Below are positions 11,219 to 28,790 of a stretch of DNA of 64,000 nucleotides, in pieces; position 1 is the stretch's first letter, and every line of letters begins with the position of its first letter. The stretch comes from Escherichia coli (GTDB lineage: Bacteria; Pseudomonadota; Gammaproteobacteria; Enterobacterales; Enterobacteriaceae), in the NCBI RefSeq assembly GCF_016903815.1, contig NZ_CP069973.1; one strand, written 5' to 3'. The notes under the pieces were generated by a model that did not search any database, was not told where the DNA came from, and saw nothing but the letters and a program-made list of their open reading frames with translations. The translations under genes were made by a program, and so were the position numbers.

Positions 11219-11226
11219 GGTGATAT

Positions 11227-12341: not shown

Positions 12342-12424
12342 CCGCCTGAGCGCGGCTTTACCGCATACCAATAATGCTTCACGAGAGGCATTTTAGTTAT
12401 GCAATCAAATATAAGGAGTTACCC

Positions 12425-14463: not shown

Positions 14464-14474
14464 CGGTATCGACT

Positions 14475-14789: not shown

Positions 14790-14805
14790 CATGGAGTAAT
14801 TAACA

Positions 14806-15087: not shown

Positions 15088-15488
15088 GAGGACTTGCATA
15101 CAATCCCGGCATTCTTCCGGCAGAAATGATTATTCGCCAACGCGTAAAGCCAATGCCATCGAGAGAGGAATTGCTTAAGAGAAATTCTTTTCCATCAGTG
15201 AATCAAAACAAATATCTGAATTCGATGTGGCGCAAAGGAGGCAAGCAGTGAGTAATTCCGCACGACTACAGCTTGGTTTTTCACCGCTATCAAAAACTAT
15301 CATGCTGGCAAAAATGCGCGATGTTGAAGGTGGACGTATGCGCGTTGGCAATGATCCAGGTCGTGATGTTACCAATGAGGCTGCTCAATTGGTGTGGCGA
15401 CTGGTCATGGCTGAAGGTGGTGAGATCGCGTGGGAACTTGATGATGGTTCTCGCATGGTGTTGAAGGCAGAGAAGCAGGAGACAACCA

Positions 15489-16181
15489 GTGAGCAAGATT
15501 GACTATCAGGCACTGCGTGATGTGGCAGTGAAAGCCGGTAAAGATAAGTGGCAAGCTAAAAAAATAAACGGTGATTTTTTCGTTATTCGTCACGGTAGTT
15601 ATACAAGACAGCATGGCTACACATTGTATCAACCCATTGCGGAGATTGATTGTAAGTCAGTCCGGGATTTTGTTGCCAAGGCTAATCCGGCTACCGTGCT
15701 TGCGCTTCTTGATGAACTGGAAGCTCAAAGCAAACGCATTGCAGAGCTGGAGAAAAAAGCTGCACCAGATTCGTTTGGCATCATCGGTGAAAATATTCGA
15801 ACACAGGATAATCGAATAACGTCAGACCCTATGTTTTGTGTGTATCAAAAGCGCGAAATCGTTGTTGATGCTGATTATGACTATGACCGGATTGTCTGGG
15901 TTGATGAAGATGGTAATGAAGCCAATAAACGCCAAAGTCGTCGTCTCGAACTACTTCACGAAAACTTTCGAGAGCCACAAGAAAAATGGCGGCGCGTTGC
16001 TGTGAAAGATATTGATGAATTCGTTACCTGCTGTTTCACCGAACAGGGTTGTAAAGACTACCTGGCAGCCAATGGTCACAATCTTCGCTTGCCATTTATA
16101 TATGTAAAAAGCGGTTTCAGGAACGCTGAATATATCGGCATAAGAAACTGGCTTGCTGGCATTCGCATCAAAGGAGAGTGA
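15489..16181 (+). CDS. Ead/Ea22-like protein
   Basis: 230 aa; composition and position resemble the lambdoid ea22 family; assigned from memory. Confidence 0.45.
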   Translation: MSKIDYQALRDVAVKAGKDKWQAKKINGDFFVIRHGSYTRQHGYTLYQPIAEIDCKSVRDFVAKANPATVLALLDELEAQSKRIAELEKKAAPDSFGIIGENIRTQDNRITSDPMFCVYQKREIVVDADYDYDRIVWVDEDGNEANKRQSRRLELLHENFREPQEKWRRVAVKDIDEFVTCCFTEQGCKDYLAANGHNLRLPFIYVKSGFRNAEYIGIRNWLAGIRIKGE

Positions 16182-16392
16182 TATGGCTATCGCTGCAAGT
16201 TACACCATGCATCTCTATTGTGATTGCCTCCAGTGTACAGATGGCAAATATAAGTCGCCAGACTTCGGTGAGTATATAGGTACGTCATGGGCTGGCTGTG
16301 CAAAAGAGGCGCGCAAGGATGGCTGGCGAATAAGCAAAGACAAAACGCGTGCTTTTGCGCCCGGGCATAAAGTTTTGAGGATTAACAAATGA
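16153..16392 (+). CDS. Hypothetical Cys-rich protein
   Basis: 79-aa ORF overlapping both neighbours. Confidence 0.35.
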   Translation: MLAFASKESDMAIAASYTMHLYCDCLQCTDGKYKSPDFGEYIGTSWAGCAKEARKDGWRISKDKTRAFAPGHKVLRINK

Positions 16393-17180
16393 CCACTTTA
16401 ACCGACAAAGAACTGATTAAAGAAATCAAAGAGCGCATAGGCAGCTTGGACGTTCGAGACAATATTGAGCGCCGTGCTTATGAAATTGCACTGGCATCGC
16501 TGGAAGCAGAGCCGATAGGTTTCCGTTGCAGGCGCAATGATAACCTTGGTGACTGGAGTTACGTATATCATCGAGAGCCAGATGATTTTGAGCGCAAACA
16601 TTTAGTGATAGAGGGCATTTACGCCTCCCCTCCAGCGCCAGTAGTACCGGAAGAAAAACCAATGCCTAATCCTCTTAGCATGTACGCGGTTGATGCTGTT
16701 GCCGCTATTGCAGAGGTGAGAGGCTGGAACGCCTGCCGCGCTGCCATGCTTCATAGTGCCGAACCTGCAAGTAATCATGAAGAGTTGCCGCTTGATTATC
16801 TCCAAGGTCAAAAAGATGGTCTTGAATGGGCTGCGCAGCTTGCAGAAGCAAATCACCCACAAACTGGCGACTGGCTTTACGATGACCCGCTGGAGCTGGC
16901 TAAAGCTATCAGAAAAGGTCCTGACATGCCCGAATTCGATGGACCAACTCCGGTGACTCCGGATAGTTGGATAAGCTGTAGTGATCGAATGCCGGAAGAC
17001 ACCAAAATGTTACTGGCATTTAGTCAAGGTCAAATAGTGGCAGCATATTGGAACTGGGTAGTGAGTCCAATTGATTACAAAAAATACAGAGCTTTCACAT
17101 ATTTATCAGGCAATATCTTGGATGACGTAACCCACTGGATGCCACTACCGGAACCGCCGCAGGAGGCTGACAATGGCTAA
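16389..17180 (+). CDS. DUF551-like phage protein
   Basis: C-terminal ...THWMPLPEPP is characteristic of DUF551 proteins. Confidence 0.5.
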   Translation: MTTLTDKELIKEIKERIGSLDVRDNIERRAYEIALASLEAEPIGFRCRRNDNLGDWSYVYHREPDDFERKHLVIEGIYASPPAPVVPEEKPMPNPLSMYAVDAVAAIAEVRGWNACRAAMLHSAEPASNHEELPLDYLQGQKDGLEWAAQLAEANHPQTGDWLYDDPLELAKAIRKGPDMPEFDGPTPVTPDSWISCSDRMPEDTKMLLAFSQGQIVAAYWNWVVSPIDYKKYRAFTYLSGNILDDVTHWMPLPEPPQEADNG

Positions 17181-17457
17181 TCTGCAACTGGCAGTGAACG
17201 GCGAATACTTCGACCAGATGAAGCGGGGCGAGAAAACGGAAGAGTATCGCCTGTGTAATGACTACTGGAATAAGCGAATTATGTTCCGGGAGTATGACCG
17301 CCTGATTATCACAAAGGGATATCCGAAGCGCGACGATTCCAGTCGCAGAATTGATGTTCCGTATGGTGGATATGAAATCAAGACAATCATACATCCACAC
17401 TTCGGTGATAAACCGGTAAAGGTGTTCGCGATAAAGGTGAATATCGGCAATGAATAA
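17173..17457 (+). CDS. Hypothetical protein
   Basis: 94-aa ORF, translationally coupled. Confidence 0.4.
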   Translation: MANLQLAVNGEYFDQMKRGEKTEEYRLCNDYWNKRIMFREYDRLIITKGYPKRDDSSRRIDVPYGGYEIKTIIHPHFGDKPVKVFAIKVNIGNE

Positions 17458-17529
17458 CATCCTCGCACTCGCGGGGATTTCTTTTATCTGAACTCGCTAC
17501 GGCGGGTTTTGTTTTATGGAGATGATAAA

Positions 17530-17697
17530 TGCACTTCCGAGTCACTGGTGAATGGAATGGAGAGCCATTCGACAGGGTTATAGAAGCAGAGGACATCAAC
17601 GACTGCTATAACCACTGGATGATATGGGCGCAGATAGCGCATGCAGACGTAACCAATATTCGAATTGAAGAACTGAAAGAACACCAAGACGCCTGAT
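17530..17697 (+). CDS. Small prophage ORF (55 aa), not on the ORF track
   Basis: My own translation MHFRVTGEWNGEPFDRVIEAEDINDCYNHWMIWAQIAHADVTNIRIEELKEHQDA. Confidence 0.35.
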
Positions 17698-17753
17698 GGC
17701 GGTTTTTTATTGCCTGATTTGCAGGTTCGATTCCCTATTCGGAGATAGCACTC

Positions 17754-17954
17754 ATGCAACACGAACTACAGCCTGATTCACTGGTTGATTTGAAATTCAT
17801 CATGGCCGATACTGGCTTTGGTAAAACCTTCATCTATGACCGGATTAAGTCCGGCGACCTTCCTAAAGCCAAAGTTATCCACGGACGAGCAAGATGGTTA
17901 TATCGTGACCATTGTGAATTTAAAAATAAGCTCTTAAGCCGCGCCAATGGGTAA
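17754..17954 (+). CDS. torI: Excisionase / recombination directionality factor, TorI type
   Basis: 66-aa excisionase-family HTH protein immediately inside attR; I recall it as matching K-12 TorI. Confidence 0.7.
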   Translation: MQHELQPDSLVDLKFIMADTGFGKTFIYDRIKSGDLPKAKVIHGRARWLYRDHCEFKNKLLSRANG

Positions 17955-18027
17955 AATAGCGGGTAAAATATTTCTCACATCTAAAAAACACCATTCCAAT
18001 CAATCCCCTGCCGCTTCAAGTAGATGT

Positions 18028-18042
18028 CTGCAGGGGACACCA
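18028..18042 (+). repeat. attR-like direct repeat: 15 bp identical to the 3-prime end of tRNA-Arg (argW), CTGCAGGGGACACCA
   Basis: Exact 15-mer also present at 28336-28350; lies between torI and the next integrase. Confidence 0.7.
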
Positions 18043-18206
18043 TCCCGCTGTACACCAACGTCTACCATTGTCTATAAATCCCATGTAAACATATAAAAAT
18101 AAAGAGATTTTATTCTCATGACGTCCATTTCCGTCTATTGAAATCAAGTAAATCTATGGGGCATAATTAGGGGCATTGCTGGTTCGATTGTATATGTGCC
18201 CCCAAC

Positions 18207-19493
18207 ATGTCCAGAAATACCCTCAACAAATTAACAGACCGTCAGTGCAAAGCAGCTAAGCCACGAGACAAAACTTATAAATTGTCTGATGGTGGTGGTC
18301 TTTATCTTGAAGTATCCCAGACCGGGTCGAAGTATTGGCGAATGAAGTATCGCCGCCCATCAGATAAGAAAGAAGACAGACTTGCTTTTGGTGTATATCC
18401 AACCATTAGCTTACAAGACGCCAGAGAAAAACGAGACAACGCCAAAAAGTTGTTAGTCAAGGGGATAGATCCCAAAGCAGAGCAAAGAGCAGCAAAAGCA
18501 GAAGAAAAAGGCGCATTCACTTTTGAGACAATAGGACGTCAATGGGTTGAAAGCCACCAGATGTGGAACGAAGACCACCGAAAACGCGTACTTAGAAGCC
18601 TTGAAATGTATATTTTCCCTCACATTGGCACTTCGGATATTCGCAAACTGGAGGCGATGACAATTTTACCTTTGTTTAAGAAGGTAGATGACGCCGGGAA
18701 ACACGATACAGCCAACCGACTTAAACAACGAGTTAAGGACATCATACATAGCGCCCGTCTGAGCGGCATTAAGACAGAAATCATCACGAATGATCTCGAT
18801 GTCCGGTTAATGCAATATGAAACTAAGCATCATGCCGCACTACATCCCAGAGATTTACCAGACTTTTTCACTCGATTGGGCAGCTTTAAAGGTAATCCTC
18901 TTACCCGCCTTGCCATTGAGCTAACCATGTTGACATTTGTTCGTTCAAGCGAGTTAAGGTTTGCCCGTTGGAAAGAGTTTGACCTTGATCGGGCTGAGTG
19001 GATTATCCCTAAAAAAAGAGAGCCTATCGATGGTGTGAGGTTTTCCACCCGTGGCACAAAAACGGGAAAAGACGAACATATCGTGCTTCTTAGCCGTCAG
19101 GCTGTTTCTATTGTAAAGCAGTTGAGAGAACTAAGCGGAAGCTACGATGTTGTGTTTCCGAATGAAAGAAACACCAAAGGCGTGATGAGTGAAAACACGG
19201 TAAACAAGGCATTACGCTTAATGGGCTATAACACGCAAGAGGACGTAACTGGACATGGATTCCGTGCCACAGCCTGTAGTTCCCTGATGGAGTCCGGTTT
19301 GTGGCAGGAGGACGCAGTAGAGCGCCAGATGAGCCACAAAGAATATAAAGACGTTAAAAGAGCCTACAAGCACAAGGCTGATTACTTAGAAGAGCGCAAA
19401 CTAATGCTTCAATGGTGGGCAGATTATCTGGACGCCAATCGAGAAATACATATAAGCCCTTACGAGTTCGGAAGGAGAACACGCCGTGACTAA
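18207..19493 (+). CDS. Tyrosine integrase, P4 family
   Basis: 428 aa; P4-type N-terminus (KLTDRQCKAAKPRDKTYKLSDGGGLYLEV) and C-terminal LMLQWWADYLD motif. Confidence 0.9.
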   Translation: MSRNTLNKLTDRQCKAAKPRDKTYKLSDGGGLYLEVSQTGSKYWRMKYRRPSDKKEDRLAFGVYPTISLQDAREKRDNAKKLLVKGIDPKAEQRAAKAEEKGAFTFETIGRQWVESHQMWNEDHRKRVLRSLEMYIFPHIGTSDIRKLEAMTILPLFKKVDDAGKHDTANRLKQRVKDIIHSARLSGIKTEIITNDLDVRLMQYETKHHAALHPRDLPDFFTRLGSFKGNPLTRLAIELTMLTFVRSSELRFARWKEFDLDRAEWIIPKKREPIDGVRFSTRGTKTGKDEHIVLLSRQAVSIVKQLRELSGSYDVVFPNERNTKGVMSENTVNKALRLMGYNTQEDVTGHGFRATACSSLMESGLWQEDAVERQMSHKEYKDVKRAYKHKADYLEERKLMLQWWADYLDANREIHISPYEFGRRTRRD

Positions 19494-20241
19494 GATGACA
19501 GGACTAGATGCGTTTTATAACGAGTCAGAAGATAAAATCTGGTTTGGTAATCTGATCAGCGAACTGGCAAGACTAAACAATGAAAATGAAAGAATGATCG
19601 CTGCCGCTATCTTAAGTAACTACAGATTGAGCAAAGCTAAACCAGATACTTTAGGGGGGCTGGGCTTTTATCAGTTCGATTGGGTATCAGGTTTTACAAC
19701 TAATGACGACTTTGAAAAGCAGTGTGTGGAGTTTTTAGGTCTTCTGGCTATGGGGCATGAATACAGGGAGAGCCCGATACCGGGGGAAGAAGGGACTTTC
19801 AACGTTAGGAAAGGGGAAGACTTTTTATATCACGATGATGAGGATGATTGGTATGGGTCTTACGATTCGTTTTATTTCAAGCGCTCCGAGGTTGTGAACT
19901 TCTTCCCAGAACTGGATATGAATGTTCCAGATAACGAACCAGAAATTGGAGCACTGTCAAAAAAAGTAGAAAGAGAACAAAACTGGAGAGGAAAAGATAC
20001 GGCTTTAAAGATGATCGCCGGAATGGCGATTGCCTTATTTGAATCAAGCAAAGATTTCCATAGTGGAGGAAACCTTAGTATCAATAGGGTTAGTGCCCAA
20101 GTAATAGAAAACAACATAATATTCGGGAACGATGAAGACAGCGATACCCACCCAGATACATTTCGGAGATTGCTAACGAACGCTTTGGATAAGTACGCCC
20201 CCAAATTTAAGAAAAAAGCAACCAAAAAGCGTCCAAAATAA
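19486..20241 (+). CDS. Hypothetical acidic protein coupled to the integrase
   Basis: 251-aa ORF; start overlaps the int stop by 8 bp. Confidence 0.45.
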   Translation: MTKMTGLDAFYNESEDKIWFGNLISELARLNNENERMIAAAILSNYRLSKAKPDTLGGLGFYQFDWVSGFTTNDDFEKQCVEFLGLLAMGHEYRESPIPGEEGTFNVRKGEDFLYHDDEDDWYGSYDSFYFKRSEVVNFFPELDMNVPDNEPEIGALSKKVEREQNWRGKDTALKMIAGMAIALFESSKDFHSGGNLSINRVSAQVIENNIIFGNDEDSDTHPDTFRRLLTNALDKYAPKFKKKATKKRPK

Positions 20242-20397
20242 AGGAAGGATGTTCCCAAATTGTGCGTTAGAACTAAAAAATAACGCCCAATTTGGGGTAA
20301 TTCTATTCCCAAAAATTTTTTCTCCAAATTCACAGAAAACTTAAAAAAACAATGATTTACTATCTCACATAGTCAAGCAACGTATTACGAGGTAGAT

Positions 20398-20589
20398 ATG
20401 AAAAAGTCGCTGATTCGGCTATCTGAGGTTTTGAAACGCACTGGCTATAGCAAGGCGTGGGTATATGCTCTGATGAGCCGAGGACAATTCCCCCAATCAG
20501 TCAAGATTGGTGCTCGCGCAATAGCTTTTATTGAAAGCGAGATCGATGACTGGATCGATCAACGTATAGCCGAATCGCGTAGTAACTAA
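20398..20589 (+). CDS. alpA: AlpA-family transcriptional regulator / excisionase
   Basis: 63 aa; RLSEVLKRTGYSKAWVYALMSRGQFPQSVKIGARAIAFIESEIDDWI is the classic AlpA HTH. Confidence 0.8.
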   Translation: MKKSLIRLSEVLKRTGYSKAWVYALMSRGQFPQSVKIGARAIAFIESEIDDWIDQRIAESRSN

Positions 20590-20637
20590 AGAACAGAAAC
20601 AAACAGGATACAAACAATACGTTATTAGGTATTAAGA

Positions 20638-20829
20638 ATGCAGTTGAAACCTACCAATCAAAAGCTGAACGTAACCCATGTTGATTTTGAAACCTTCGCG
20701 GCACTGATTAGATCAGAGCCACAAAAGGTGAGCACCAGCACCTGGGTTTATGATGTGAAATCCACCAGCGGTGGAAAAGCTATCGGCATTGCCTCTGGCG
20801 ATGATTACTTAGTAATAGATCTGATTTAA
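20638..20829 (+). CDS. Hypothetical protein
   Basis: 63-aa ORF. Confidence 0.3.
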   Translation: MQLKPTNQKLNVTHVDFETFAALIRSEPQKVSTSTWVYDVKSTSGGKAIGIASGDDYLVIDLI

Positions 20830-20910
20830 TCGCACAAAAATTGTAGAGTAATTTGGGGAGACAGGAAGTCTCCTCCATATTACATTTTGGTACAACAGTA
20901 AGGGAATAAA

Positions 20911-21105
20911 ATGATTAATTACCTGACCGCTAAAGACGCAGCAGAATATCTTGGCGTCTGTCTGTCACGCTTCTATCAGTTAAAGCGATATATCCGAAGC
21001 TTTCCTCCCTATATAAATCAGACCATCAATGGACGCAAGCGCCGGGTGTGGCTTGCCTCCAGCCTTGATCAATTTGCCGACAGATTTCTGGGGGGACGAA
21101 AATGA
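20911..21105 (+). CDS. Hypothetical small protein, possible HTH
   Basis: 64-aa ORF with LTAKDAAEYLGVCLSRFYQL (HTH-like). Confidence 0.4.
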   Translation: MINYLTAKDAAEYLGVCLSRFYQLKRYIRSFPPYINQTINGRKRRVWLASSLDQFADRFLGGRK

Positions 21106-21488
21106 GCACTCTTACACGCTCTCAGGTCGCCGCGAATATACGCGATATCCTACTAAGTGGCAGGAAGCTTACCCCAAAAGAGTTTGACGACATATTAAGG
21201 AAAGCCGGAAATCACGAACGTAGTCGCGTTTTAACGCTGTTACGCAACGATTGGGGAATTCCTGTTGAGCAGTTTAAAACAGAGGCGTATCACGTCACAG
21301 AACGCAATTTAGAAGCATACCACAGCGATAAAGACGAAACATTGAAGATCTGGAGGACGAACGCCAGATATGTAAAGACATTGCGTAAGGTAAACATAAC
21401 GTTGTCGTTGTTGCGTGGGCTGGTGGGTAAAGTGCCTGAAGACACGCTTAGAACTGTTTACAAGGGTATTGAAACCAAATACCTGTGA
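21102..21488 (+). CDS. Hypothetical protein
   Basis: 128-aa ORF, 4-bp overlap with the upstream gene. Confidence 0.4.
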   Translation: MSTLTRSQVAANIRDILLSGRKLTPKEFDDILRKAGNHERSRVLTLLRNDWGIPVEQFKTEAYHVTERNLEAYHSDKDETLKIWRTNARYVKTLRKVNITLSLLRGLVGKVPEDTLRTVYKGIETKYL

Positions 21489-21556
21489 TTGACAAAGCAG
21501 AAAGCCGACTTTGCGAGAGTCGGCTTTGAAGCAATTGAAATATATGAACTTTACAC

Positions 21557-22609
21557 ATGGAATTATACGATAAAGACGCGAGTCTATCCACAAAATCACA
21601 AGCCGTAATCAATCACATCAATGGTCGCACATTAGCTTATGTGAGATCAGTTACGCACAAACGTAATGAATTAAAGGCGGAGAATAAACGCCAATCATCA
21701 AAGGCTAACCACTGCATACCACCAGCTTGGACAAAGAAGAAATGGCGTACAATGAGGCGAGCTTTGTTTACTCTGGATGTCGAATCAACTAGTGGTATCC
21801 CCTACTCCTTTACCTTCAGACCCGTTAAGGGAACAACGCCAGAGAAATTCAACAAAGCGTTAAAGGCACTTACCAGATGGTTGACTTCGAAAGGCAATCA
21901 GTGGGTTTACGTCATGGAGTGGGCTCAACACCAGTCAGAGCCGCATGTACACGCAATAATTATGGTGAACGAAAGAAGCATTAATGGGCAAGCAGGCAAA
22001 ATTGTCAGCAAATGGGTAACACTGGCAAACAATGCAATCCCATCAAATGTTCCTCCCCAGTGGGATCTAGATTTGAAAGGTCAGCAATATTCAGAGCCTA
22101 CAAGGTGTATAGGTAAACAGATTGATTACATGGCAAAACCCGAAACTAAGTTAAATGACTTTAATAGAGAGGCGAGCAAGAGCCTATATGATTGGTCAGA
22201 TGCCAACGTTTGGGGTTATTCGAATGGCTGGGCGCGGCATGAGATAAAAAAAGAAACACTTTCTATCACTGGCTTTCATGCTGTAAGACGCATACTAAAA
22301 GCCATTCAGGCATCAAGGAAAGACAACTACAAAGTTAAGCGACAGATACAGCGTACATTGAAACGACAAGACATAAATCGCTCACCAATCACCCCGTTCC
22401 AAGCACCGTTAATTAGCAAACACGATTGGGATTTATCAGTGATAGCGGTCACCAAAGAGGCAGAGACAGAGCGCAGGGAGTTACTATCCTCACAGACAAT
22501 AAACTCGAACAAAGTACAAACCCACCCGCTGTTAAGGATGTTAAGAAAAGCACGAGTGAGAGCATCCAGAGCCAGAAGAGAAAGCGGAGGTTATGACCAT
22601 TACTACTAG
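21557..22609 (+). CDS. Putative rolling-circle replication initiator (HUH endonuclease)
   Basis: 350 aa with an HUH-like motif (EPHVHAIIMV) and tyrosine-rich region; family assignment is from motif only. Confidence 0.45.
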   Translation: MELYDKDASLSTKSQAVINHINGRTLAYVRSVTHKRNELKAENKRQSSKANHCIPPAWTKKKWRTMRRALFTLDVESTSGIPYSFTFRPVKGTTPEKFNKALKALTRWLTSKGNQWVYVMEWAQHQSEPHVHAIIMVNERSINGQAGKIVSKWVTLANNAIPSNVPPQWDLDLKGQQYSEPTRCIGKQIDYMAKPETKLNDFNREASKSLYDWSDANVWGYSNGWARHEIKKETLSITGFHAVRRILKAIQASRKDNYKVKRQIQRTLKRQDINRSPITPFQAPLISKHDWDLSVIAVTKEAETERRELLSSQTINSNKVQTHPLLRMLRKARVRASRARRESGGYDHYY

Positions 22610-23407
22610 TAGTGACAGATCGTGACAAGGCAGAGCAAAAAACGACCAATATAAGAGAAATATCCCTGCCCAATCGCCAAAAGCGCGGAGCGCGGAGCGC
22701 GGCAAGCGCCGCGAGAGGCGCAAGAAGGCGAACCTATCCATTGAAACGGTCAGAAGAGCGCATCGCGCTCGATGACCGAAGTCCCCACTAACACCGTTAA
22801 CGAAAGATCAAAGTCTTAGAAAAAAATGACGTTTCTTTGAAGGGCTTCCATCCGTAAAAATCAAATTTTGAGATAAAGTACTTATAGAAATTAATCACTC
22901 TATAAGAGTGAGTTGACGTGAGTTTGAAGTGAGCAACATATTAAAAATATATATAATAATCAAACATATAATAACAACTACTGAGCAAAAATCACCAGAA
23001 AACAACGTCAACGTAACGTCACTCTGTAAGCACTTTTTCAGTCACTTTTTGGGTTGAATACACGTATAAATCCCCAACCATGAAATTTGAGCGCGTAAGC
23101 ACGACTCTGAAAGGCTTTTTATCTTTTAACCATTTAATATACCTGAGGTATTGAAGAAGATTCTGAGACATATACTAGAACTTTACCGTGCACGACTAAC
23201 AACATAAACGTTATATTTATATATAAATCAATGAGATAAATACATCCCCATCCAAAAAACAAGCATAACGCAAAATTGCGTTATCAACTTAAAAGGTACG
23301 ATTGAATCTGACAGTCTGCTCTGAGCGAAATGTGGGCACGTTCACCATAAGTCTCCAGATTGAAACGAAATGATAGTGTTAAATGTTCGATAGTTACTTT
23401 TCTAAGC

Positions 23408-24400
23408 TCAACGTTCGTAATAGTAATCCGACACCTCAGTAAAATCTATTTCCTCCCTAGAAAGTAATGATTCCATCTCATCTAGTTTATCGATTTGAGG
23501 CAAAACACTTGTTGGTGAAATCACAACATTAAAGTCCTCATTATATCGGTGACCTACCCTTGTGAGCTCTTTACCTAATTGCAACAATATATAATCACGT
23601 AAAATAAGTTGATTCCGTCTAAATCGAATAAGACGATAGTAATGGAAGAAATCAGAACATTTTGATGAATCATAATTTCTACCATTCCACCCGGTTTTCC
23701 TCGTAGCTCGGAATAATGCTTGCTCTTGCGTATTTTTCCAAATGCTAAAATCAAAGTGACTTTTCGGGTTAGGATTTTCGTATGTTGCTTGAGGATAAAA
23801 ATTAGTAACACCAAATTGATGCTTGTCAATGATCTTTAAAGTCCGATTTTGTTCAGACAACATCCGCCTTAAGGACCTAGGAATTTCGAAACGCATTAGT
23901 TTGTTTTTATCCAAGATTCTTAATTCTCTTGGAAGCATCTCATGATCCCGTTCTAAATATCTTTCACACCGTTTCGGCACATACTGAAAATACACTGAAA
24001 AAAAACAAAATATATTATCAGAAACGAGAGGAGTAATATGTATTTTTTCTTGCTCAGGAACGTTTTGAACAAAATAGTATGCCGTTCCTTGCCAAATCAA
24101 CGATTGCGCTACTGCCTCCACCAATTCACGTATTGTTTCATCTACCGAGTATTTCCTATATCTAGCTTGTAAATTTCCAAACATTTTACGTATGAGTTCT
24201 TCGTCGTTAGTTTCGACTTGAAACAAATTGGTATCACCGTGATTTACAAAATTAAAAACTCTAGCAAAATCCTCATAAAACATCCTTTGATAGAAACCTG
24301 GTCGTTCATTCTTAGACTTGGTCAATAGTCTATCAACAAAACTTAATTGCTCAGGATCGACGCTATAACCGTAAAGGGGTATATTCTTGATAATTTTCAT
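23408..24400 (-). CDS. Unclassified 330-aa soluble protein, downstream gene of the cargo operon
   Basis: Long ORF with AAGGA Shine-Dalgarno; start ATG overlaps the upstream stop as ATGA; no TM segment and no catalytic motif recognised. Confidence 0.6.
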   Translation of the reverse strand: MKIIKNIPLYGYSVDPEQLSFVDRLLTKSKNERPGFYQRMFYEDFARVFNFVNHGDTNLFQVETNDEELIRKMFGNLQARYRKYSVDETIRELVEAVAQSLIWQGTAYYFVQNVPEQEKIHITPLVSDNIFCFFSVYFQYVPKRCERYLERDHEMLPRELRILDKNKLMRFEIPRSLRRMLSEQNRTLKIIDKHQFGVTNFYPQATYENPNPKSHFDFSIWKNTQEQALFRATRKTGWNGRNYDSSKCSDFFHYYRLIRFRRNQLILRDYILLQLGKELTRVGHRYNEDFNVVISPTSVLPQIDKLDEMESLLSREEIDFTEVSDYYYER

Positions 24401-26874
24401 TCAAAATCCTTATCGTATTCCACGCCAAAACGACGAGCCAACTCACTAACATGGTAATCGATCTTGAAGTCAATTTGCTCGAGTTGCGGGAAAATTTCGA
24501 GAGCACAAAAGAGATGCGATGCATCTGAATGGGAGTTTAAGAACTCTCTGACAACTTTGTTCGTATGAGATTTCCCTCGATTCATTCCCATTTGATCGCT
24601 AAAGCCATCATGTCTTGCGCGGCGCTCAAATTCCATTTTCCAGTTAAGACGAATCATATCTCTCGGTGATGCGCACAAGCTGAAATTGCGCGGATTTGAA
24701 AGAATCATCATTCTCTTCAAATACTGCTGTTTGTTGGGAACAGACTCGAGCCAAGACTTAAACCTATCAAGTACTGTTTTAGATAGTTTTGCATTATCGA
24801 AATAAGCACTGTAAAGGATAGCAAAACCTAGAACTGACATCAGATCGTTGATCGCGGATGAAAGGAGATGCAGTCGAAACTCGTTGTTTATATCGAGTTT
24901 CGGATCTACAAATTTGGTATCTGATGCCAGCAATGAGAGAACCATGAACATAGGGAATACCTTGCTCAGTTTATTTTCATCATTCTGTTCAAGCGCATGT
25001 ATACATTCCTCAGCCAACTCAAAATATATCTGTCCAAAATGATCCGGTAGTTCATCATCTTGCTCTTGTTCAATGATATGTCCCACAATTTCCACCCTAC
25101 CAAGAATAGCTATAGCTTCATCCTGTGTAACGACAAACTGTTTGAGCATTTCAGCAATATTAATTTCTGGTAATGCGTATAGCTTTTCAGAGTAGTGCTC
25201 GTACTTTCTGTATCTCTCCAAGAGCAGAGAAAGTTCATTAAACCAATGGGGAAACTTCAAATGATTATGTAGGCTAGCGAGAACGACTTGCGTTGCGGCT
25301 TCCGGCATCTTCATGTTTATCAGTGAGTTAACGAAATCTGGAACCATGTTTACGTGAAAATCGCATACTTCTGGCAGAATTTTAGAATATTGTTGTAATA
25401 ACTTCTGAACCGCCAACTGCTGGACGTACTTTGGTTTGGATAATCTCTGTCCTTCAATCTCTTTTTCGAATTCGATACGTTCTACGATAAAGGCCAACTC
25501 AACCTGCAGAAAAGCAGGCAAAGTGTGTAGAGAGGTCTCTGTCCAGATATCATCTTTAAAGAACTGCTCCAATTCTTTCTCAAAAGTAATCATGCGGCGT
25601 AACATTTCAAGGCAAAGATTGCTGCCTAATGCAGCCCATGCATCCGCAATTCCAACTTTTATCACCTTTTCCTCAAAATAATTAACGACATCAGACGGTG
25701 TAAAGGCTTTTTCAATGATCGTCTTCATTTTCCGAAGTTCACGTATACCAATATCGAACTGAAACTGTTGTGCATAAGTTAATATACGAGATGAGAATAG
25801 ACTGATGAGATCCAACCCGAGCTTGAAATCACCGGCTTTGAATGCAAGTTCAATATGGCCTACCAACCTATTGATAATTTCATTCTCTAACCAAAGATAA
25901 TTTGGTTCTTCTTCAACCGTTAATTGGCTCCTTGTTTTTAAAGCAATGGATGTTACACTGTCGCCAGCTAAGAACCATTGCTTATGTTTTATTCGTCTAG
26001 GGAACCAGTAACTTTGATAATCAATTCTGTGTTTCTGATTAAGGTAATGAAGAAGTAATGCCGAATAAACATTACTGAGAGCAGGTAAATTATCTCCGAG
26101 TCCTACTTTTTCACATATCAGGCGATCATCAATGTAGTTTAACTGCTCAAAGGCCAAATGTGCGGCTTTAGAGTGATGATTAGCTAAAGATACTGAATTC
26201 TTGGGATTAGACGCACCTTCGATGTGTCGTGCAATTCGTGGGAGTATTTCACTTCGGGCTAACTGATTTAGGTCAAAAAAATTGAATAATCTTTGACCTA
26301 ATGGGAACAGAGCTAAGGAACTAACAAGTGTCAGCAATGTTCCCATTGCATAAACGAAAAGACCGGGTTCAACCCCGAACAAGTGGAGAGCAGTTGCACT
26401 AAGACAAAACACCGCAGAAAGCACTAAAGTCCGCGAATACACATTACCTACCTGCTCGGTAGTAAGCATTTGTATAATATCTCGCCGAAGTCTGGTATAT
26501 CCTGTACTTAGAATGATACCTATTGTAGCAAAGTATATTGAAAATATAGCGGTAAGTATCTGTGCGTACAACCTAAGTTGATCAATATTAAATTTTTTTT
26601 CATCATAGCTAAGAGGATGAAGCAAAATCGTATTATTCCGAATATAATCTTCAACAAAACCCAGTGCAAATAACGTTAATATGACCCATAACAAATTTTT
26701 TAAACCTACCAACGCAAAAGACATAAAAACATGAGCGTTAGACTTAGCTTTAAAAACAGACGTACGATGTATGTATGACGCACGTTCTAAAATAAATCTA
26801 ACCCTCACAAGATCTGTTCTTAATTTCCAGAACCACTTTTGAGAAATAAGCCAAACCTTCATTATATCAATCAA
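24397..26874 (-). CDS. Unclassified 825-aa membrane-anchored protein (about four N-terminal TM helices plus a roughly 630-aa helical cytoplasmic region)
   Basis: Uninterrupted 2.5-kb ORF in AT-rich DNA; hydrophobic segments near residues 50-74, 102-124, 148-168 and 172-192; no Walker or nuclease motif seen. The track start is TTG; the first ATG is at 26862. Confidence 0.6.
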   Translation of the reverse strand: MIDIMKVWLISQKWFWKLRTDLVRVRFILERASYIHRTSVFKAKSNAHVFMSFALVGLKNLLWVILTLFALGFVEDYIRNNTILLHPLSYDEKKFNIDQLRLYAQILTAIFSIYFATIGIILSTGYTRLRRDIIQMLTTEQVGNVYSRTLVLSAVFCLSATALHLFGVEPGLFVYAMGTLLTLVSSLALFPLGQRLFNFFDLNQLARSEILPRIARHIEGASNPKNSVSLANHHSKAAHLAFEQLNYIDDRLICEKVGLGDNLPALSNVYSALLLHYLNQKHRIDYQSYWFPRRIKHKQWFLAGDSVTSIALKTRSQLTVEEEPNYLWLENEIINRLVGHIELAFKAGDFKLGLDLISLFSSRILTYAQQFQFDIGIRELRKMKTIIEKAFTPSDVVNYFEEKVIKVGIADAWAALGSNLCLEMLRRMITFEKELEQFFKDDIWTETSLHTLPAFLQVELAFIVERIEFEKEIEGQRLSKPKYVQQLAVQKLLQQYSKILPEVCDFHVNMVPDFVNSLINMKMPEAATQVVLASLHNHLKFPHWFNELSLLLERYRKYEHYSEKLYALPEINIAEMLKQFVVTQDEAIAILGRVEIVGHIIEQEQDDELPDHFGQIYFELAEECIHALEQNDENKLSKVFPMFMVLSLLASDTKFVDPKLDINNEFRLHLLSSAINDLMSVLGFAILYSAYFDNAKLSKTVLDRFKSWLESVPNKQQYLKRMMILSNPRNFSLCASPRDMIRLNWKMEFERRARHDGFSDQMGMNRGKSHTNKVVREFLNSHSDASHLFCALEIFPQLEQIDFKIDYHVSELARRFGVEYDKDFE

Positions 26875-27055
26875 GTGATACCTGCCTTCTCATCTCTACA
26901 TGCAACATAAAAATGCTTACTATGGTGGCAAACAAAATCAAGAATCATATGTTTGAACACTTTTTACGCACGAATTATCCGGTGTAAGATACTTATAGTC
27001 AAATGGCAGGGCTAATCTCATCTGTATTGAGCTATTAACAGCCATATGTAAGACT

Positions 27056-27084
27056 AAGAAACGCGCCCAGCAAAGGCGCGTTCT
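27056..27084 (-). terminator. Hairpin terminator after the small minus-strand ORF
   Basis: ACGCGCC-TTTGCTG-GGCGCGT stem-loop followed by a T-rich tract on the minus strand. Confidence 0.4.
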
Positions 27085-27264
27085 GCATCAGGTAAGTTTG
27101 CTGGGGTCTACGGTTTCCATCCAATCTGGAGCAATTCCCAAACGTTCCGCTATCTCTTCGTTGGTCATGTCTTCAGTTGAGAAATTAGCCAGAGAATCGT
27201 TAACTTCAGGATAGTCAGGGGAGAGTAACAGGTATTCCCGCAACGCTTTCAGATCTTTTTCCAT
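27085..27264 (-). CDS. Small ORF (59 aa) upstream of the cargo operon, not on the ORF track
   Basis: My own translation MEKDLKALREYLLLSPDYPEVNDSLANFSTEDMTNEEIAERLGIAPDWMETVDPSKLT; followed on the minus strand by a hairpin. Confidence 0.3.
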
Positions 27265-27431
27265 TTTAACGCTCCTTGTTTATTGACAGTCGAACGATGG
27301 TGAAGATTCTTGCCATCTCAAGTACAGGCAAGAAAATCCACCAGAACACCAAATTATCTCATAAGGTTAAATCGGTGTCGGGCTATTTCTTTCGGCTAGG
27401 TGAGTGTACCGCCTTAACCACCGGCAATTAT

Positions 27432-27564
27432 CATTGTCTCAATTGGGTATACCGTAATGACAAGGTGATACAAAGTCTCAATAGGGTTGTATAGGAACAT
27501 TTTGACTACACAAAATGCATTATGTATCATTTGCACTTATATTCACAACCCTATTGAGACAATG
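27432..27564. promoter_or_regulatory. res-like repeat cluster directly upstream of the serine recombinase gene
   Basis: 16-bp inverted repeat GTCTCAATAGGGTTGT (27475-27490) / ACAACCCTATTGAGAC (27545-27560) plus a partial direct copy CATTGTCTCAAT at 27432-27443. Confidence 0.45.
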
Positions 27565-27566
27565 CA

Positions 27567-28193
27567 ATGAACGTTAGAATTTACTGCCGAGCATCAACTG
27601 AGGGGCAACACGCTGATCGAGCACTTACCAGCCTACGTGAATTTTCAAAATCAAAAGGCTGGCAGATTGCAGGAGAGTATATAGAAAATGCTAGCGGGGC
27701 GAAGCTTGAGCGCGTAGAGCTTATGCGGCTATTGTCTGAAGCCCAGTCCGGCGATCTGTTGCTAGTGGAAGCTATAGATCGTCTGAGTCGCCTAGAACAT
27801 AGCGCATGGGTCGAACTGAAAGATACGCTCAACCGAAAAGGGTTAATCATCGTATCAATGGATTTACCAACGAGCTGGCAGATGGTCGAGATGGCAGGCA
27901 ATGACCTAACCAGCGGCATCCTGAGAGCCGTAAATGCCATGTTGATTGATATCCTTGCCACAATGGCACGGCAGGATTACGAAACACGTCGTAAACGCCA
28001 ACAGCAAGGCATTGAGCGAGCTAAAAGCGAAGGAATATACATTGGCAGGGAGAAAAATCAGGAAGCCCGAGAGATCGTTAGAGAGATGTTGGAGCAAGGA
28101 GTAAAACCTGAACTCATCATGAAGGCAGCAGGAATCAGCCGAGCGACTTACTACCGTATAAAAAGTGAGCTGTCAGTCGTAAAATCAGAATAA
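27567..28193 (+). CDS. Serine recombinase (resolvase/invertase family)
   Basis: 208 aa; N-terminal VRIYCRASTEGQ catalytic-serine motif and C-terminal HTH. Confidence 0.85.
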   Translation: MNVRIYCRASTEGQHADRALTSLREFSKSKGWQIAGEYIENASGAKLERVELMRLLSEAQSGDLLLVEAIDRLSRLEHSAWVELKDTLNRKGLIIVSMDLPTSWQMVEMAGNDLTSGILRAVNAMLIDILATMARQDYETRRKRQQQGIERAKSEGIYIGREKNQEAREIVREMLEQGVKPELIMKAAGISRATYYRIKSELSVVKSE

Positions 28194-28327
28194 CCTTTGA
28201 AAGGTCGTCAGGCTTGTTTCATCTGCTAAAAGCCAGCATTTCTGACCATAATACCTGGGGGCACCTACTGGGGCACCCACCAAAATCGAAAGACAAATAA
28301 GTTATAATTCAATCTGTTAGTTTACTT

Positions 28328-28350
28328 TTCGATTCCTGCAGGGGACACCA
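28328..28350 (+). repeat. attR direct repeat: 23 bp identical to the argW 3-prime end, TTCGATTCCTGCAGGGGACACCA
   Basis: Matches the recalled 3-prime end of E. coli tRNA-Arg (argW); shares a 15-mer with 18028-18042. Confidence 0.8.
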
Positions 28351-28790
28351 GATACCCTTCAAACCAAATCTACCTTCACCCCGTAAAAGATGGGTTTGGC
28401 GCACACTAGCCCTATATCTACTCATTTTTACTGCAACAGGTTGAAATCTCAGCACTGTCAGAAAGCGCTGATGACTAAACAGCCCTGGGCCGGGCGATGT
28501 AACCATCATACAGAATCCTGATAGCGAAATATGGCGTGACTCGATACTTCACTCTGCAATGCATTCCTTGATGAATTCGCAGGCCCGTGATACTCGGGAC
28601 AGGTCGCTGAATGACGACAATGTCCTGGAAATCAGCGAACCGCGTATCCGGAGTACATTTGAGCGACTGTACCAGAACATGAATGAGGCGTTTGGATTAG
28701 GTGATTATTAGTTGGGCTAAGCATTTTTGTATTATTATTTTCCGGTTGAGGGATATGGAGATATCGACAACAACCGGAAAAAGTTTACGT

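What the first reader, a model, noticed from the sequence alone, without database searches (positions are those of the whole stretch)
21557..23407. HUH Rep-like gene followed by an 800-bp AT-rich non-coding region with a GC hairpin
The 350-aa protein carries an HUH-like motif (HVHAII), suggesting a rolling-circle initiator for an excised island. Downstream is a GCGCGGA tandem repeat and a perfect hairpin (CGCGGC-AAGC-GCCGCG, 22697-22712), then about 700 bp of very AT-rich DNA with no long ORF. This could hold a replication origin or nick site, or simply the junction with the cargo.
Basis: partly seen in the sequence, partly recalled or inferred. Interest (0 to 1): 0.4.

Follow-up and report, generated by a model that had tools for sequence, protein, structure and literature searches.

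The report
Plasmid-derived rolling-circle replicon inside E. coli island
The gene is a genuine rolling-circle (HUH) replication initiator, and the first ~470 bp after it is probably its origin region, because both derive from a family of small, uncharacterised Klebsiella plasmids that has fused to an integrase to form a 10-kb E. coli island carrying swappable cargo, some of it phage-defence genes.

Summary

The window is E. coli. The gene lies in a 10.3-kb island (18043-28350) at tRNA-Arg argW. The island runs: integrase, AlpA, HTH, winged-helix protein, Rep, non-coding DNA, cargo, small gene, res site plus resolvase.

Distant Rep relatives (25-33% identity) sit on circular 4.5-10 kb contigs and on complete Klebsiella plasmids with the same backbone. 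So the island is an integrated plasmid replicon.

The 798-bp non-coding stretch is composite:
- 22610-22800: 55% GC and rich in hairpins.
- 22801-~23075: an AT-rich module, AAAGTCYTAGAAAAAAA-N15-GAAGGGC-N35-CTTATA, with rigid spacing. It occurs only next to this Rep clade.
- 23126-23407: cargo-specific, with the cargo terminator.

The most likely function of the first ~470 bp is the cis-acting origin. The nick site is not mapped and replication is untested. A conserved antisense promoter plus terminator at the rep start predicts a copy-control RNA.

This is a new member of a known kind, of moderate interest.

The parts
18023..18042 (.). Left island boundary: a copy of the 3' end of tRNA-Arg (argW), GATGTCTGCAGGGGACACCA
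   Evidence: Direct repeat with 28331-28350, 18/20 identical (D5). In strain VL46 the same island sits directly after an intact tRNA-Arg.
18207..19493 (+). P4-type tyrosine integrase (428 aa)
   Evidence: Pfam Arm-DNA-bind_3, Phage_int_M and Phage_integrase, E 7e-29 to 8e-17.
20398..20589 (+). AlpA-like HTH, excisionase/regulator (63 aa)
   Evidence: PHROG 2790 and 66 'excisionase and transcriptional regulator', E 3e-11. Precomputed PF05930 Phage_AlpA on the identical gene.
20911..21105 (+). MerR/excisionase-like HTH (64 aa), first gene of the conserved replication operon
   Evidence: 41-71% identical homologues lie immediately upstream of the 128-aa gene and rep in plasmid and island relatives. 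Weak TIGR01764/PHROG hits.
21102..21488 (+). 128-aa winged-helix DNA-binding protein; always precedes rep
21493..21590 (-). Candidate antisense copy-control RNA unit: promoter TGGATA-17-TATAAT (21590-21562), transcript of ~60 nt, terminator hairpin 21527-21501 plus T-run
   Evidence: Promoter and terminator scan. The hairpin is present in all 13 distinct relatives with different stems and a minus-strand T-run. 4 of 8 pairs show compensatory changes. A -10 box overlaps rep codons 2-4 in most relatives.
21557..22609 (+). rep: HUH rolling-circle replication initiator (350 aa)
22602..22613 (.). Palindrome ACTACTAGTAGT across the rep stop codons
   Evidence: A TAGTAG-containing motif (consensus TACTNYTAGTAGT) lies 114-260 nt upstream of block A in 11 of 19 relatives. 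In several it is outside the coding frame.
22674..22731 (+).
   Evidence: ssDNA fold. TRF. Copy number is 3 in the window lineage and 2 in VL46, O157 and E. albertii.
22747..22778 (.). Two-tier hairpin CGGTCA-GAA-GAGCGC-ATC-GCGCTC-GA-TGACCG
   Evidence: Present in both strand folds. Equivalent multi-tier hairpins with different stem sequences precede block A in the plasmid clades, L026 and L008.
22810..22826 (+). Block A: AAAGTCTTAGAAAAAAA, the most conserved non-coding motif of the family
   Evidence: Nearly invariant in a 15-sequence alignment. Used as the search pattern.
22839..22845 (+). Block B: GAAGGGC, about 15 nt (12-16) after block A's TAGAAAA
   Evidence: The gap between TAGAAAA and GAAGGG was 14-16 nt in the pattern-selected family loci, 12 nt in the window and 13 nt in L007, which also has GATGGG.
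22881..22910 (.). Block C/D: inverted repeat CTTATAGA (22881-22888) / TCTATAAG (22899-22906), overlapping hairpin CACTC-TATAA-GAGTG
   Evidence: CTTATA lies 35-37 nt after GAAGGG in the family loci. L009 has CTTATAC...GTATAAG, a change on both arms. An IS3-family element is inserted at 22885-22892 in one genome.
22912..23022 (.). GTTGACGT (22912-22919), variable AT-rich spacer (22925-22998, 24% GC), CAACGT x3.3 with ACGTCAAC (23003-23022)
   Evidence: The spacer differs among close variants while the flanks are conserved. The related block GCAACGTAAGGTCAA is conserved in the plasmids.
23063..23125 (.). Distal end of the conserved backbone (CGTATAAATCC 23063-23073); similarity to other island variants stops between ~23072 and ~23124
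   Evidence: In the plasmids this block abuts the 3' end of the small minus-strand gene.
23126..23407 (-). Cargo-specific 3' region with the intrinsic terminator of the cargo operon (23284-23265)
   Evidence: No similarity to variants with other cargo. Terminator scan.
23408..26874 (-). Cargo: two-gene operon (330 aa and 825 aa) of unknown function
   Evidence: No Pfam, NCBIfam, PADLOC or PHROG hit. The same bay holds GapS6a/b, a DpnII/MboI-domain gene, an HNH gene set, or type III R-M in relatives.
27088..27264 (-). Small backbone gene (58 aa)
   Evidence: Homologues in Klebsiella islands and in L026/L034 at 39-49% identity. A small minus-strand gene abuts the non-coding module in the plasmids.
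27432..28193 (+). res-like repeats TGTCTCAAT(T/A)GGGT x3 (27432-27564) and serine resolvase (27567-28193)
   Evidence: Inverted repeats I7 and I9. Pfam Resolvase E 2e-23. A resolvase is present in all plasmid relatives.
28331..28350 (.). Right island boundary: a copy of the argW 3' end, GATTCCTGCAGGGGACACCA
   Evidence: D5. In genomes without the island, tRNA-Arg lies at this position next to cscB.

Best explanation
The finding is the replication module of a small rolling-circle plasmid that became a chromosomal island.

A P4-type integrase/AlpA module has joined the plasmid backbone. That backbone is: HTH, winged-helix protein, HUH Rep, ~470 bp of non-coding DNA, a small gene, and a res site plus resolvase. 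The composite is integrated at the 3' end of tRNA-Arg argW.

Rep (21557-22609) is a single-tyrosine HUH nickase of the Rep class. By analogy with characterised rolling-circle replicons, and once Int/AlpA have excised the island as a circle, the expected steps are (all inferred):
1. Rep binds its cognate site in the conserved DNA 3' of its own gene.
2. Rep nicks one strand through Y191, with metal held by H130/H132 and probably E121.
3. Host polymerase and helicase copy the circle by strand displacement.
4. GC-rich hairpins on the displaced strand serve as the lagging-strand origin.
5. The resolvase at its res site resolves multimers.
6. A ~60-nt antisense RNA across the rep start limits Rep synthesis.

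What is shown: Rep family membership, the plasmid ancestry, the exclusive linkage of the non-coding module to this Rep clade, its rigid architecture, and the conserved hairpins.

What is not shown: that this module is the origin, where the nick falls, and whether the E. coli copy still replicates.

The remaining 23126-23407 is simply the 3' end and terminator of the cargo operon.
For: Rep identity:
- PF23343 above the gathering score; 14 of 14 clade members hit it.
- Motifs I, II (HUH) and III (YxxK) are invariant and in Rep order.
- The PDB profile search finds only geminivirus Rep, at the HUH motif.

Plasmid ancestry:
- Rep relatives lie on contigs with assembler-type terminal overlaps of 30, 55, 77 or 127 nt, meaning circles of 4.5-10.2 kb.
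- They also lie on complete Klebsiella plasmids OW849042.1, NZ_CP103581.1, NZ_CP073059.1 and others. These have no replicon type or relaxase assigned.
- Rep is the only initiator candidate identified in the plasmid ORFs that were scanned.
- The HTH, 128-aa and rep genes are syntenic, and every relative encodes a resolvase.

Linkage of the module to Rep:
- The DNA pattern AAAGTCYTAGAAAA-N14-16-GAAGGG gave 44 metagenome loci and 1 viral locus.
- Of the 45 loci, 28 belong to the family. 27 have CTTATA 35-37 nt further on and L017 has CTTACA instead.
- 25 of the 28 carry a Rep homologue. Where measured, it ended about 150-430 nt upstream on the same strand. The other 3 are cut short by contig ends.
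- The 17 matches without CTTATA have no Rep.
- In PLSDB the plasmid version of the module hits 11 of 72,556 records. All 11 are among the 16 that carry a Rep homologue.
- Spacing between blocks is fixed although the sequence between them varies.

Structure:
- A multi-tier GC hairpin precedes block A in four lineages, each with different stems.
- The region folds at z -3.17 as ssDNA.

Copy control: a conserved antisense promoter and terminator lie at the rep start.

Island mobility: direct repeats of the tRNA 3' end flank the island. The same island sits at argW in E. coli, E. albertii, Klebsiella and Citrobacter with different cargo.
Against: - No experiment or read-level data show excision, circles, ssDNA or replication of the island.
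- The nick site cannot be named. No block matches a nick sequence I could recall from characterised families.
- The module is not always next to rep. It follows the resolvase gene in L008 and the cargo in Klebsiella/Citrobacter. This weakens a simple 'origin just 3' of rep' picture, although in a circle it is still in cis.
- The plasmids have other non-coding gaps of 300-370 bp that could hold the origin.
- The hairpin-to-block-A distance varies from about 6 to 35 nt, which is unlike a strict hairpin-plus-nick geometry.
- In E. coli the region tolerates IS insertions, one of them inside block C. O157 carries a truncated, frameshifted rep. Many chromosomal copies may therefore be inert.
Confidence: 0.62

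Rival explanations
1. The HUH protein is a mobilisation relaxase and the conserved module is an origin of transfer (oriT). On this reading the island or plasmid is moved as single-stranded DNA by a helper conjugative element, and vegetative replication is provided some other way.
For: - Weak Pfam hit to the MobA/VirD2 relaxase nuclease domain (E 0.0055).
- A strong inverted repeat followed by a conserved A-rich site is the usual oriT layout.
- Rep-class proteins are known to act as relaxases in some Gram-positive elements (MOBT; PMC6499999, seen, not read).
- Two copies sit in large conjugative plasmids.
Against: - The relaxase hit is below its cut-off (17.4 versus 24.6 bits), while the Rep family hit passes its own.
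- The motif order is HUH then Tyr, which is the Rep class. Classical relaxases have the Tyr N-terminal to the HUH motif (established knowledge, Chandler et al. 2013).
- MOB-suite calls the plasmids non-mobilizable.
- The small plasmids have no other initiator, so Rep must at least replicate them.
- An antisense RNA over the start codon is typical of copy-number control of rep genes.
- The module never occurs without this Rep in 72,556 plasmids.
Confidence: 0.1
2. The conserved non-coding DNA is regulatory or structural rather than an origin. It would hold terminators for rep and the small gene, binding sites for the HTH and winged-helix proteins, or a small RNA. The true nick site would lie elsewhere, for example upstream of the HTH-128aa-rep operon or inside rep.
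For: - Rep and the minus-strand genes converge here, so terminators are expected.
- The hairpins could be such terminators.
- The module is detached from rep in L008 and in the Klebsiella islands.
- In several characterised rolling-circle plasmid families the origin is upstream of or within rep (established knowledge).
- The plasmids have other non-coding gaps.
Against: - None of the hairpins in 22674-22778 is followed by a T-run on either strand.
- Conservation of about 330 bp with rigid spacing across Reps of 25-33% identity is far more than terminators need.
- In the island this is the only non-coding sequence found to be shared with the plasmids. The other intergenic gaps in the island core are 50-160 bp.
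- No Rfam family matches.
Confidence: 0.15
3. It is a theta-type iteron origin. The CAACGT/CGTCAAC repeats would flank an AT-rich unwinding element bound by the winged-helix 128-aa protein, and the HUH protein would have another role.
For: - GTTGACGT (22912-22919), a 24% GC spacer and CAACGT x3.3 (23003-23021) look like iterons around an unwinding element.
- The 128-aa protein has a winged-helix fold and is better conserved than Rep.
Against: - Known iteron initiators are roughly 250-350 aa with two winged-helix domains (established knowledge), whereas this protein has one.
- The AT-rich spacer is absent or replaced in the plasmid relatives, and the repeats differ in number and arrangement.
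- The invariant blocks A, B and C are not iterons.
- An intact, conserved HUH active site with antisense control argues that Rep is the initiator.
Confidence: 0.05
4. It is a phage-satellite signal. The island would be a helper-dependent satellite, and the module its packaging or induction site.
For: - The island has the int-alpA front end seen in satellites and carries defence-type cargo.
- In this window it lies next to a lambdoid prophage.
- A rolling-circle plasmid is reported to act as an inovirus satellite (bioRxiv 10.1101/2023.11.28.569023, abstract read).
- One IMG/VR contig contains the island.
Against: - No capsid, terminase, primase-helicase, Psu/Sid/Delta or other satellite marker was found with PHROGs or Pfam.
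- The neighbouring prophage varies or is absent among genomes.
- The IMG/VR hit is a 33-kb prophage-plus-island contig, not a packaged unit.
- The relatives are ordinary plasmids in isolate assemblies.
Confidence: 0.04

Closest known systems
Rolling-circle plasmids with HUH Rep, a small DNA-binding regulator and antisense-RNA copy control (pMV158/pLS1 type: CopG, RNAII, RepB, dso, sso)
   Same: - Small DNA-binding proteins are encoded just upstream of rep.
- A predicted ~60-nt countertranscript covers the rep translation start.
- A structured non-coding region could hold the origins.
- Small circular relatives of 4.5-6 kb exist.
   Different: - The Rep belongs to Pfam PF23343, not Rep_2 or Rep_1, and is at most weakly similar in sequence.
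- The non-coding module lies 3' of rep rather than upstream and has no recognisable pMV158-type nick sequence.
- The hosts are Enterobacteriaceae.
- The backbone includes a serine resolvase with a res site.
- Here the replicon is fused to an integrase and sits in the chromosome.
Filamentous-phage and plectrovirus initiators (gene II protein / ORF2, the namesakes of Pfam PF23343)
   Same: The only Pfam family passed, with the same catalytic core. In Ff phages the origins also lie in a hairpin-rich intergenic region with an adjacent AT-rich enhancer (established knowledge).
   Different: - Only the ~60-residue HUH segment aligns (residues 85-143).
- No phage structural or assembly genes are present in the island or the plasmids.
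- The clade is tiny and isolated: 21 representatives at E<1e-3 among 1.84 billion proteins.
Integrative elements that replicate by rolling circle after excision (pSAM2-type AICEs of Streptomyces; ICEBs1/Tn916 using their relaxase)
   Same: A site-specific integrase plus excisionase at a tRNA gene, combined with an HUH initiator that could amplify the excised circle. This is established knowledge for those elements. Here only the gene content is shown.
   Different: - Those elements are conjugative and Gram-positive, and their initiators belong to other families (RepSA, NicK/MOBT).
- This island has no transfer genes, is 10 kb, and is in Enterobacteriaceae.
- Post-excision replication is not demonstrated for it.
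P4-like satellites, PICIs and integrase-only defence islands at E. coli tRNA hotspots (Hochhauser et al. 2023, PMC10121019)
   Same: - P4-type integrase and AlpA at a tRNA gene.
- A cargo bay holding different cargo in different strains, some of it defence genes: GAPS6, type III R-M, a DpnII/MboI-domain gene, an HNH gene set, or unknown genes.
- That paper notes integrase-bearing defence islands whose mode of mobilisation is unclear.
   Different: No P4 alpha primase-helicase, no Psu/Sid/Delta, and no PICI pri-rep or packaging genes. The replication module is a plasmid-type HUH Rep with a resolvase.

Membership tests
HUH endonuclease superfamily, Rep class (Pfam PF23343 REP_ORF2-G2P) | HUH metal-binding motif (His-hydrophobic-His followed by hydrophobic residues) | tested here: met
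   P129-H130-V-H132-A-I-I. P129, H130 and H132 are invariant in 14 clade members.
HUH endonuclease superfamily, Rep class (Pfam PF23343 REP_ORF2-G2P) | Catalytic tyrosine motif (YxxK) located C-terminal to the HUH motif | tested here: met
   Y191-M-A-K194. Y and K are invariant, 59 residues after HUH.
HUH endonuclease superfamily, Rep class (Pfam PF23343 REP_ORF2-G2P) | Motif I (uTuT-like strand) N-terminal to HUH | tested here: met
   G80-IPYSFTF, with invariant G80 and T86; the consensus is PYxxTLT.
HUH endonuclease superfamily, Rep class (Pfam PF23343 REP_ORF2-G2P) | Score at or above the curated Pfam gathering threshold | tested here: met
   29.8 bits versus 27.8, E 7.6e-7, but only residues 85-143 align. 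All 14 clade members match at E<0.01, best 6e-10.
HUH endonuclease superfamily, Rep class (Pfam PF23343 REP_ORF2-G2P) | HUH nuclease fold | tested here: met
   [not shown]
HUH endonuclease superfamily, Rep class (Pfam PF23343 REP_ORF2-G2P) | Site-specific nicking and joining of single-stranded DNA at a cognate origin | not testable with these tools
   Needs purified protein and substrates from 22600-23080.
Rolling-circle plasmid replicon | Autonomous circular relatives whose only initiator candidate is this Rep | tested here: met
   Circular contigs L008, L014, L015, L025, L045, L046 and L051. Complete Klebsiella plasmids. Among the nine L046/L051 ORFs scanned, only Rep, resolvase, an HTH and (in L051) type III R-M cargo were recognised; four ORFs had no hit.
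Rolling-circle plasmid replicon | Double-strand origin with a defined nick site and Rep-binding site | tested here: inconclusive
   A conserved, Rep-linked module exists, but no nick site could be assigned and its position relative to rep varies.
Rolling-circle plasmid replicon | Single-strand origin (strand-specific folded region) | tested here: inconclusive
   22670-22800 folds at z -3.17 on the + strand and z -1.97 on the - strand. Hairpins are conserved as structure. No similarity to a known sso type was established.
Rolling-circle plasmid replicon | Single-stranded DNA replication intermediates | not testable with these tools
   Requires Southern or S1 analysis of plasmid-bearing cells.
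tRNA-targeting integrative island (P4-type integrase) | Tyrosine integrase adjacent to a tRNA-derived attachment site, with flanking direct repeats | tested here: met
   Integrase domains. 20-nt repeats of the argW 3' end at 18023-18042 and 28331-28350. An intact tRNA-Arg is next to int in VL46.
tRNA-targeting integrative island (P4-type integrase) | Excision to a circular form | not testable with these tools
   No read data. All contigs retrieved with the exact Rep were chromosomal.
Conjugative/mobilisation relaxase (MOB families) | Catalytic Tyr N-terminal to the HUH/3H motif, and a score above the relaxase family cut-off | tested here: not met
   The Tyr motif follows HUH. PF03432 scores 17.4 bits versus a cut-off of 24.6. 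MOB-suite calls the plasmids non-mobilizable.
Phage satellites (P4-like, PICI, cfPICI, PLE) | Satellite marker genes: primase-helicase/pri-rep, capsid-size or packaging-redirection genes | tested here: not met
   No such PHROG or Pfam hits in any island ORF scanned. Only int and alpA are shared.

The most novel reading that the evidence does not exclude
The island is an inducible 'integrative plasmid'. On phage attack or stress it would excise and be amplified by its own rolling-circle replicon, raising the dose of whichever defence cassette sits in its cargo bay. It would also produce single-stranded circles that could be exported by a filamentous phage or a conjugative helper. If so, the conserved block A-B-C module defines a previously unrecognised origin type, and the plasmid/island pair defines a new replicon family for moving defence genes between Klebsiella plasmids and E. 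coli chromosomes.
Probability: 0.12. Interest if true: 0.7.

Novelty: new member of a known kind. Interest (0 to 1): 0.4.

Why it matters
- It gives a concrete, testable replicon to a set of Klebsiella small plasmids that current typing tools leave untyped and 'non-mobilizable'.
- It does the same for an argW island whose rep region is found in about 10% of complete E. coli genomes (540 of 5,426).
- It shows that the island's cargo bay, flanked by the origin-like module and the small gene/resolvase, exchanges cargo between strains and genera, including known defence systems. The unannotated 330-aa plus 825-aa pair in this window is therefore a reasonable defence-system candidate.
- It offers one explanation for integrase-bearing defence islands with no obvious means of mobilisation: they may be captured plasmid replicons.
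- The Rep itself is already labelled correctly in RefSeq, so the gain is anatomical and comparative, not a new principle.

Tried and rejected
- Coding potential of the gap: rejected. Short ORFs only, and indels of 1, 7 and 2 nt among close variants.
- Known RNA families in 17000-29500: none at E<=1 apart from two chance eukaryotic hits.
- tRNA in the window: none. The intact argW lies beyond the prophage.
- NCBIfam, PADLOC and PHROG naming of Rep and cargo: nothing useful. PHROG 30534 is a function-unknown family built from the truncated O157 copy.
- Word-indexed protein search: only 8 hits. The exhaustive search found 21 representatives, so the clade is small.
- Locus search with the 14-sequence alignment failed for lack of a conserved stretch. 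With 6 sequences it found only E. albertii and Citrobacter among 100,044 species genomes.
- The GCGCGGA repeat as iterons: rejected. Copy number varies from 3 to 2, and the repeat is absent in L007, Klebsiella and the plasmids.
- The module as the res site: rejected. A separate triple repeat lies directly upstream of the resolvase gene.
- Hairpins as classical intrinsic terminators: no T-runs except in the cargo terminator and the antisense terminator.
- Comparison by eye with nick sequences recalled for phiX174/pC194 (CTTGATA), pMV158 (TACTACGAC), Ff and R388: only vague resemblances (CTTATA; ACTACTA on the minus strand of the TAGTAG palindrome). I do not count these as evidence.
- The window's own module against PLSDB: no hit.
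- Literature searches for this island, this Rep clade or PF23343 found nothing specific.
Full report
**What is there.** The window is E. coli chromosome. Region 21557-23407 is 100% identical to many complete genomes, and part of it is present in 540 of 5,426. The 350-aa ORF, the AGCGCGG x3 repeat (22682-22702) and the perfect GC hairpin are real. The gap to the next gene is 798 bp. It is not uniform: 22610-22800 is 55% GC and 22801-23407 is 33-34% GC.

**Context.** The gene sits in a 10.3-kb island bounded by 20-nt copies of the 3' end of tRNA-Arg argW, at 18023-18042 and 28331-28350. In this strain a lambdoid prophage ending in a TorI-like excisionase lies upstream, and the csc sucrose genes lie downstream. 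In strain VL46 the same island directly follows an intact tRNA-Arg.

Gene order in the island:
- P4-type integrase
- 251-aa protein
- AlpA-like HTH
- 63-aa protein
- MerR/excisionase-like HTH (64 aa)
- 128-aa protein
- Rep
- non-coding gap
- two minus-strand cargo genes (330 and 825 aa)
- 58-aa minus-strand gene
- a triple repeat upstream of a serine resolvase

**Rep.** Pfam PF23343 (REP_ORF2-G2P) is passed at 29.8 bits against a cut-off of 27.8. The clade is small. The exhaustive search found 21 representatives at E<1e-3 among 1.84 billion proteins.

In an alignment of 14 members the invariant residues are G80, T86, E121, P129-H130-x-H132, W153, Q177, Y191-x-x-K194 and W225. These cover motif I, the HUH motif and the YxxK tyrosine motif, in the order that defines the Rep class. 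All 14 hit PF23343.

**Where the replicon comes from.** Rep relatives of 25-33% identity lie on small contigs. Their ends overlap by exactly 30, 55, 77 or 127 nt, which is the signature of circular molecules in de Bruijn assemblies. The circles are 4.5 to 10.2 kb. Relatives also lie on complete Klebsiella plasmids of 5.3-6.3 kb that PLSDB lists as non-mobilizable and without replicon type.

These circles share several features with the island:
- the syntenic trio of HTH gene (41-71% identity), 128-aa gene (33-59%) and rep;
- a resolvase;
- in several, a small minus-strand gene.

The 128-aa protein is a winged-helix protein with a long helical tail. One 10.2-kb circle carries a type III restriction-modification system. 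The island is therefore this plasmid backbone, opened between the resolvase and the HTH genes and joined to an integrase/AlpA module. Klebsiella and Citrobacter have the same island at the same site with a Rep of ~50% identity.

**Anatomy of the non-coding stretch.** Three E. coli variants with different cargo are nearly identical from the rep stop to ~22924. They differ in a 24% GC spacer (22925-22998) and agree again to ~23072-23124. After that they share nothing. The last ~280 bp is therefore cargo-specific, and it contains the cargo operon's terminator (23284-23265).

The conserved part is recognisable even in plasmids whose Rep is only 27% identical. It contains:
- a TAGTAG-centred palindrome at the rep stop (22602-22613), found in 11 of 19 relatives;
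- GC-rich hairpins, including a two-tier hairpin at 22747-22778. Its counterparts in three other lineages have different stem sequences;
- block A, AAAGTCTTAGAAAAAAA (22810-22826);
- block B, GAAGGGC (22839-22845);
- block C/D, the inverted repeat CTTATAGA/TCTATAAG (22881-22906). One plasmid has both arms changed together, CTTATAC/GTATAAG;
- CAACGT/ACGTCAAC repeats (23003-23022);
- CGTATAAATCC (23063-23073).

The spacings are rigid while the intervening sequence varies. From TAGAAAA to GAAGGG the gap is 12-16 nt, about 15 in most family members. From GAAGGG to CTTATA it is 35-37 nt.

**Is the module tied to Rep?**
- A scan of the metagenome collection with block A-N14-16-block B returned 44 loci, and the viral collection returned one more.
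- Of these 45 loci, 28 belong to the family. 27 have CTTATA at the right distance and L017 has the variant CTTACA.
- 25 of the 28 encode a Rep homologue. Where measured, it ended about 150-430 nt upstream on the same strand. The other three are truncated contigs.
- None of the 17 remaining chance matches encodes Rep.
- In 72,556 PLSDB plasmids the plasmid version of the module occurs in 11 records. All 11 are among the 16 with a Rep homologue.
- The module is not always immediately 3' of rep. In L008 it follows the resolvase gene. In the Klebsiella/Citrobacter islands the cargo lies between rep and the module. So cargo can enter on either side of it.

**Interpretation.** The plasmids must carry the cis sites for their only initiator candidate. 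The sole non-coding sequence found to be conserved between plasmids and islands is this module. Its layout fits a rolling-circle origin region: conserved blocks, lineage-specific repeats and structured GC hairpins. I therefore read 22610-~23080 as the origin region (confidence about 0.6).

I cannot say which block is nicked. I also cannot say whether the hairpins are the lagging-strand origin. The + strand folds at z -3.17 and the - strand at z -1.97.

They vary between lineages and are not the core.

**Rivals.**
- A relaxase/oriT reading is disfavoured by the motif order, the scores, the lack of any other initiator and the antisense control.
- A purely regulatory reading does not explain 330 bp of rigidly spaced conservation.
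- An iteron/theta reading relies on elements that are not conserved.
- A satellite reading lacks every marker gene.

Many chromosomal copies may be inert. IS elements sit in the gap in several genomes, once inside block C. O157 has a truncated, frameshifted rep.

**Extra finding.** Immediately upstream of rep, the hairpin after the 128-aa gene (21501-21527) is present in all 13 distinct relatives. The stems differ, and 4 of 8 pairs show compensatory changes. On the minus strand the hairpin is followed by a T-run.

A sigma-70-like minus-strand promoter has its -10 box over rep codons 2-4. In the window it is TGGATA-17-TATAAT. Relatives have TTGCCT-17-TATAAT, TTGCAT-17-TATGAT and TAGACA-17-TACAAT.

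This predicts a ~60-nt RNA antisense to the rep start. Such RNAs are the classic copy-control device of rolling-circle plasmids. It matches no Rfam family.

**Novelty.** RefSeq already names the protein correctly. I found no paper on this island, plasmid family or origin in the held library, and that library is incomplete. Integrative elements with rolling-circle initiators are known in Gram-positive bacteria, and defence-carrying integrase islands are known in E. coli. This is a new member of known kinds, with a newly delineated origin-like module and a predicted control RNA.

Noticed in passing
window 21493-21590, minus strand: Predicted ~60-nt antisense RNA over the rep start. A conserved minus-strand promoter has its -10 box over rep codons 2-4, and a conserved hairpin plus T-run terminator follows. 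The stems co-vary across 12 aligned relatives (hairpin seen in all 13 distinct ones), and no Rfam family matches.
   Followed up: partly
window 23408-26874, minus strand: The two-gene cargo operon (330 aa and 825 aa) has no Pfam, NCBIfam, PADLOC or PHROG match. It occupies the bay that holds GapS6a/b (VL46), a DpnII/MboI-domain gene (L007), an HNH gene set (Klebsiella) or type III R-M (plasmid L051) in relatives. It is a candidate unknown anti-phage system.
   Followed up: partly
window 27432-27564: Three copies of TGTCTCAAT(T/A)GGGT, two direct and one inverted, lie directly upstream of the serine resolvase gene. The same sequences occur in the Klebsiella island (L004 12670-12810). This is probably the res site.
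   Followed up: partly
window 21102-21488: The 128-aa protein that always precedes rep is better conserved than Rep itself (33-59% versus 25-33% identity). It is predicted with high confidence to be a winged-helix DNA-binding domain with a long helical tail. It has no family assignment.
   Followed up: partly
window ~8000-18042: A lambdoid prophage (CI/Cro/CII, RecT, Kil, Ea22, TorI-like excisionase) lies in tandem with the island at the same argW attachment site. Other genomes have different prophages or none at this position. ARAGORN finds no tRNA in the window.
   Followed up: partly
window 22610-23407 in other genomes (H1-H5; L060 11337-12662): IS5, IS2, ISSen4 and another IS3-family element are inserted in this non-coding gap in several E. 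coli genomes. In L060 the target is 22885-22892, inside the CTTATAG inverted repeat.
   Followed up: partly
L069 (OW849042.1), L070 (NZ_CP073059.1), L046, L051 and related loci: A family of 4.5-10 kb circular Klebsiella and gut-metagenome plasmids has no replicon type or relaxase assigned by PLSDB/MOB-suite. Rep is annotated as hypothetical or not called at all.
   Followed up: partly
L003 4072-4718 (E. coli O157:H7 493/89): O157:H7 strains keep only a truncated, frameshifted rep next to a P22-like tail-needle gene fragment, plus the module, a different 470-aa cargo gene and the resolvase. PHROG 30534 appears to be built from this fragment.
   Followed up: no
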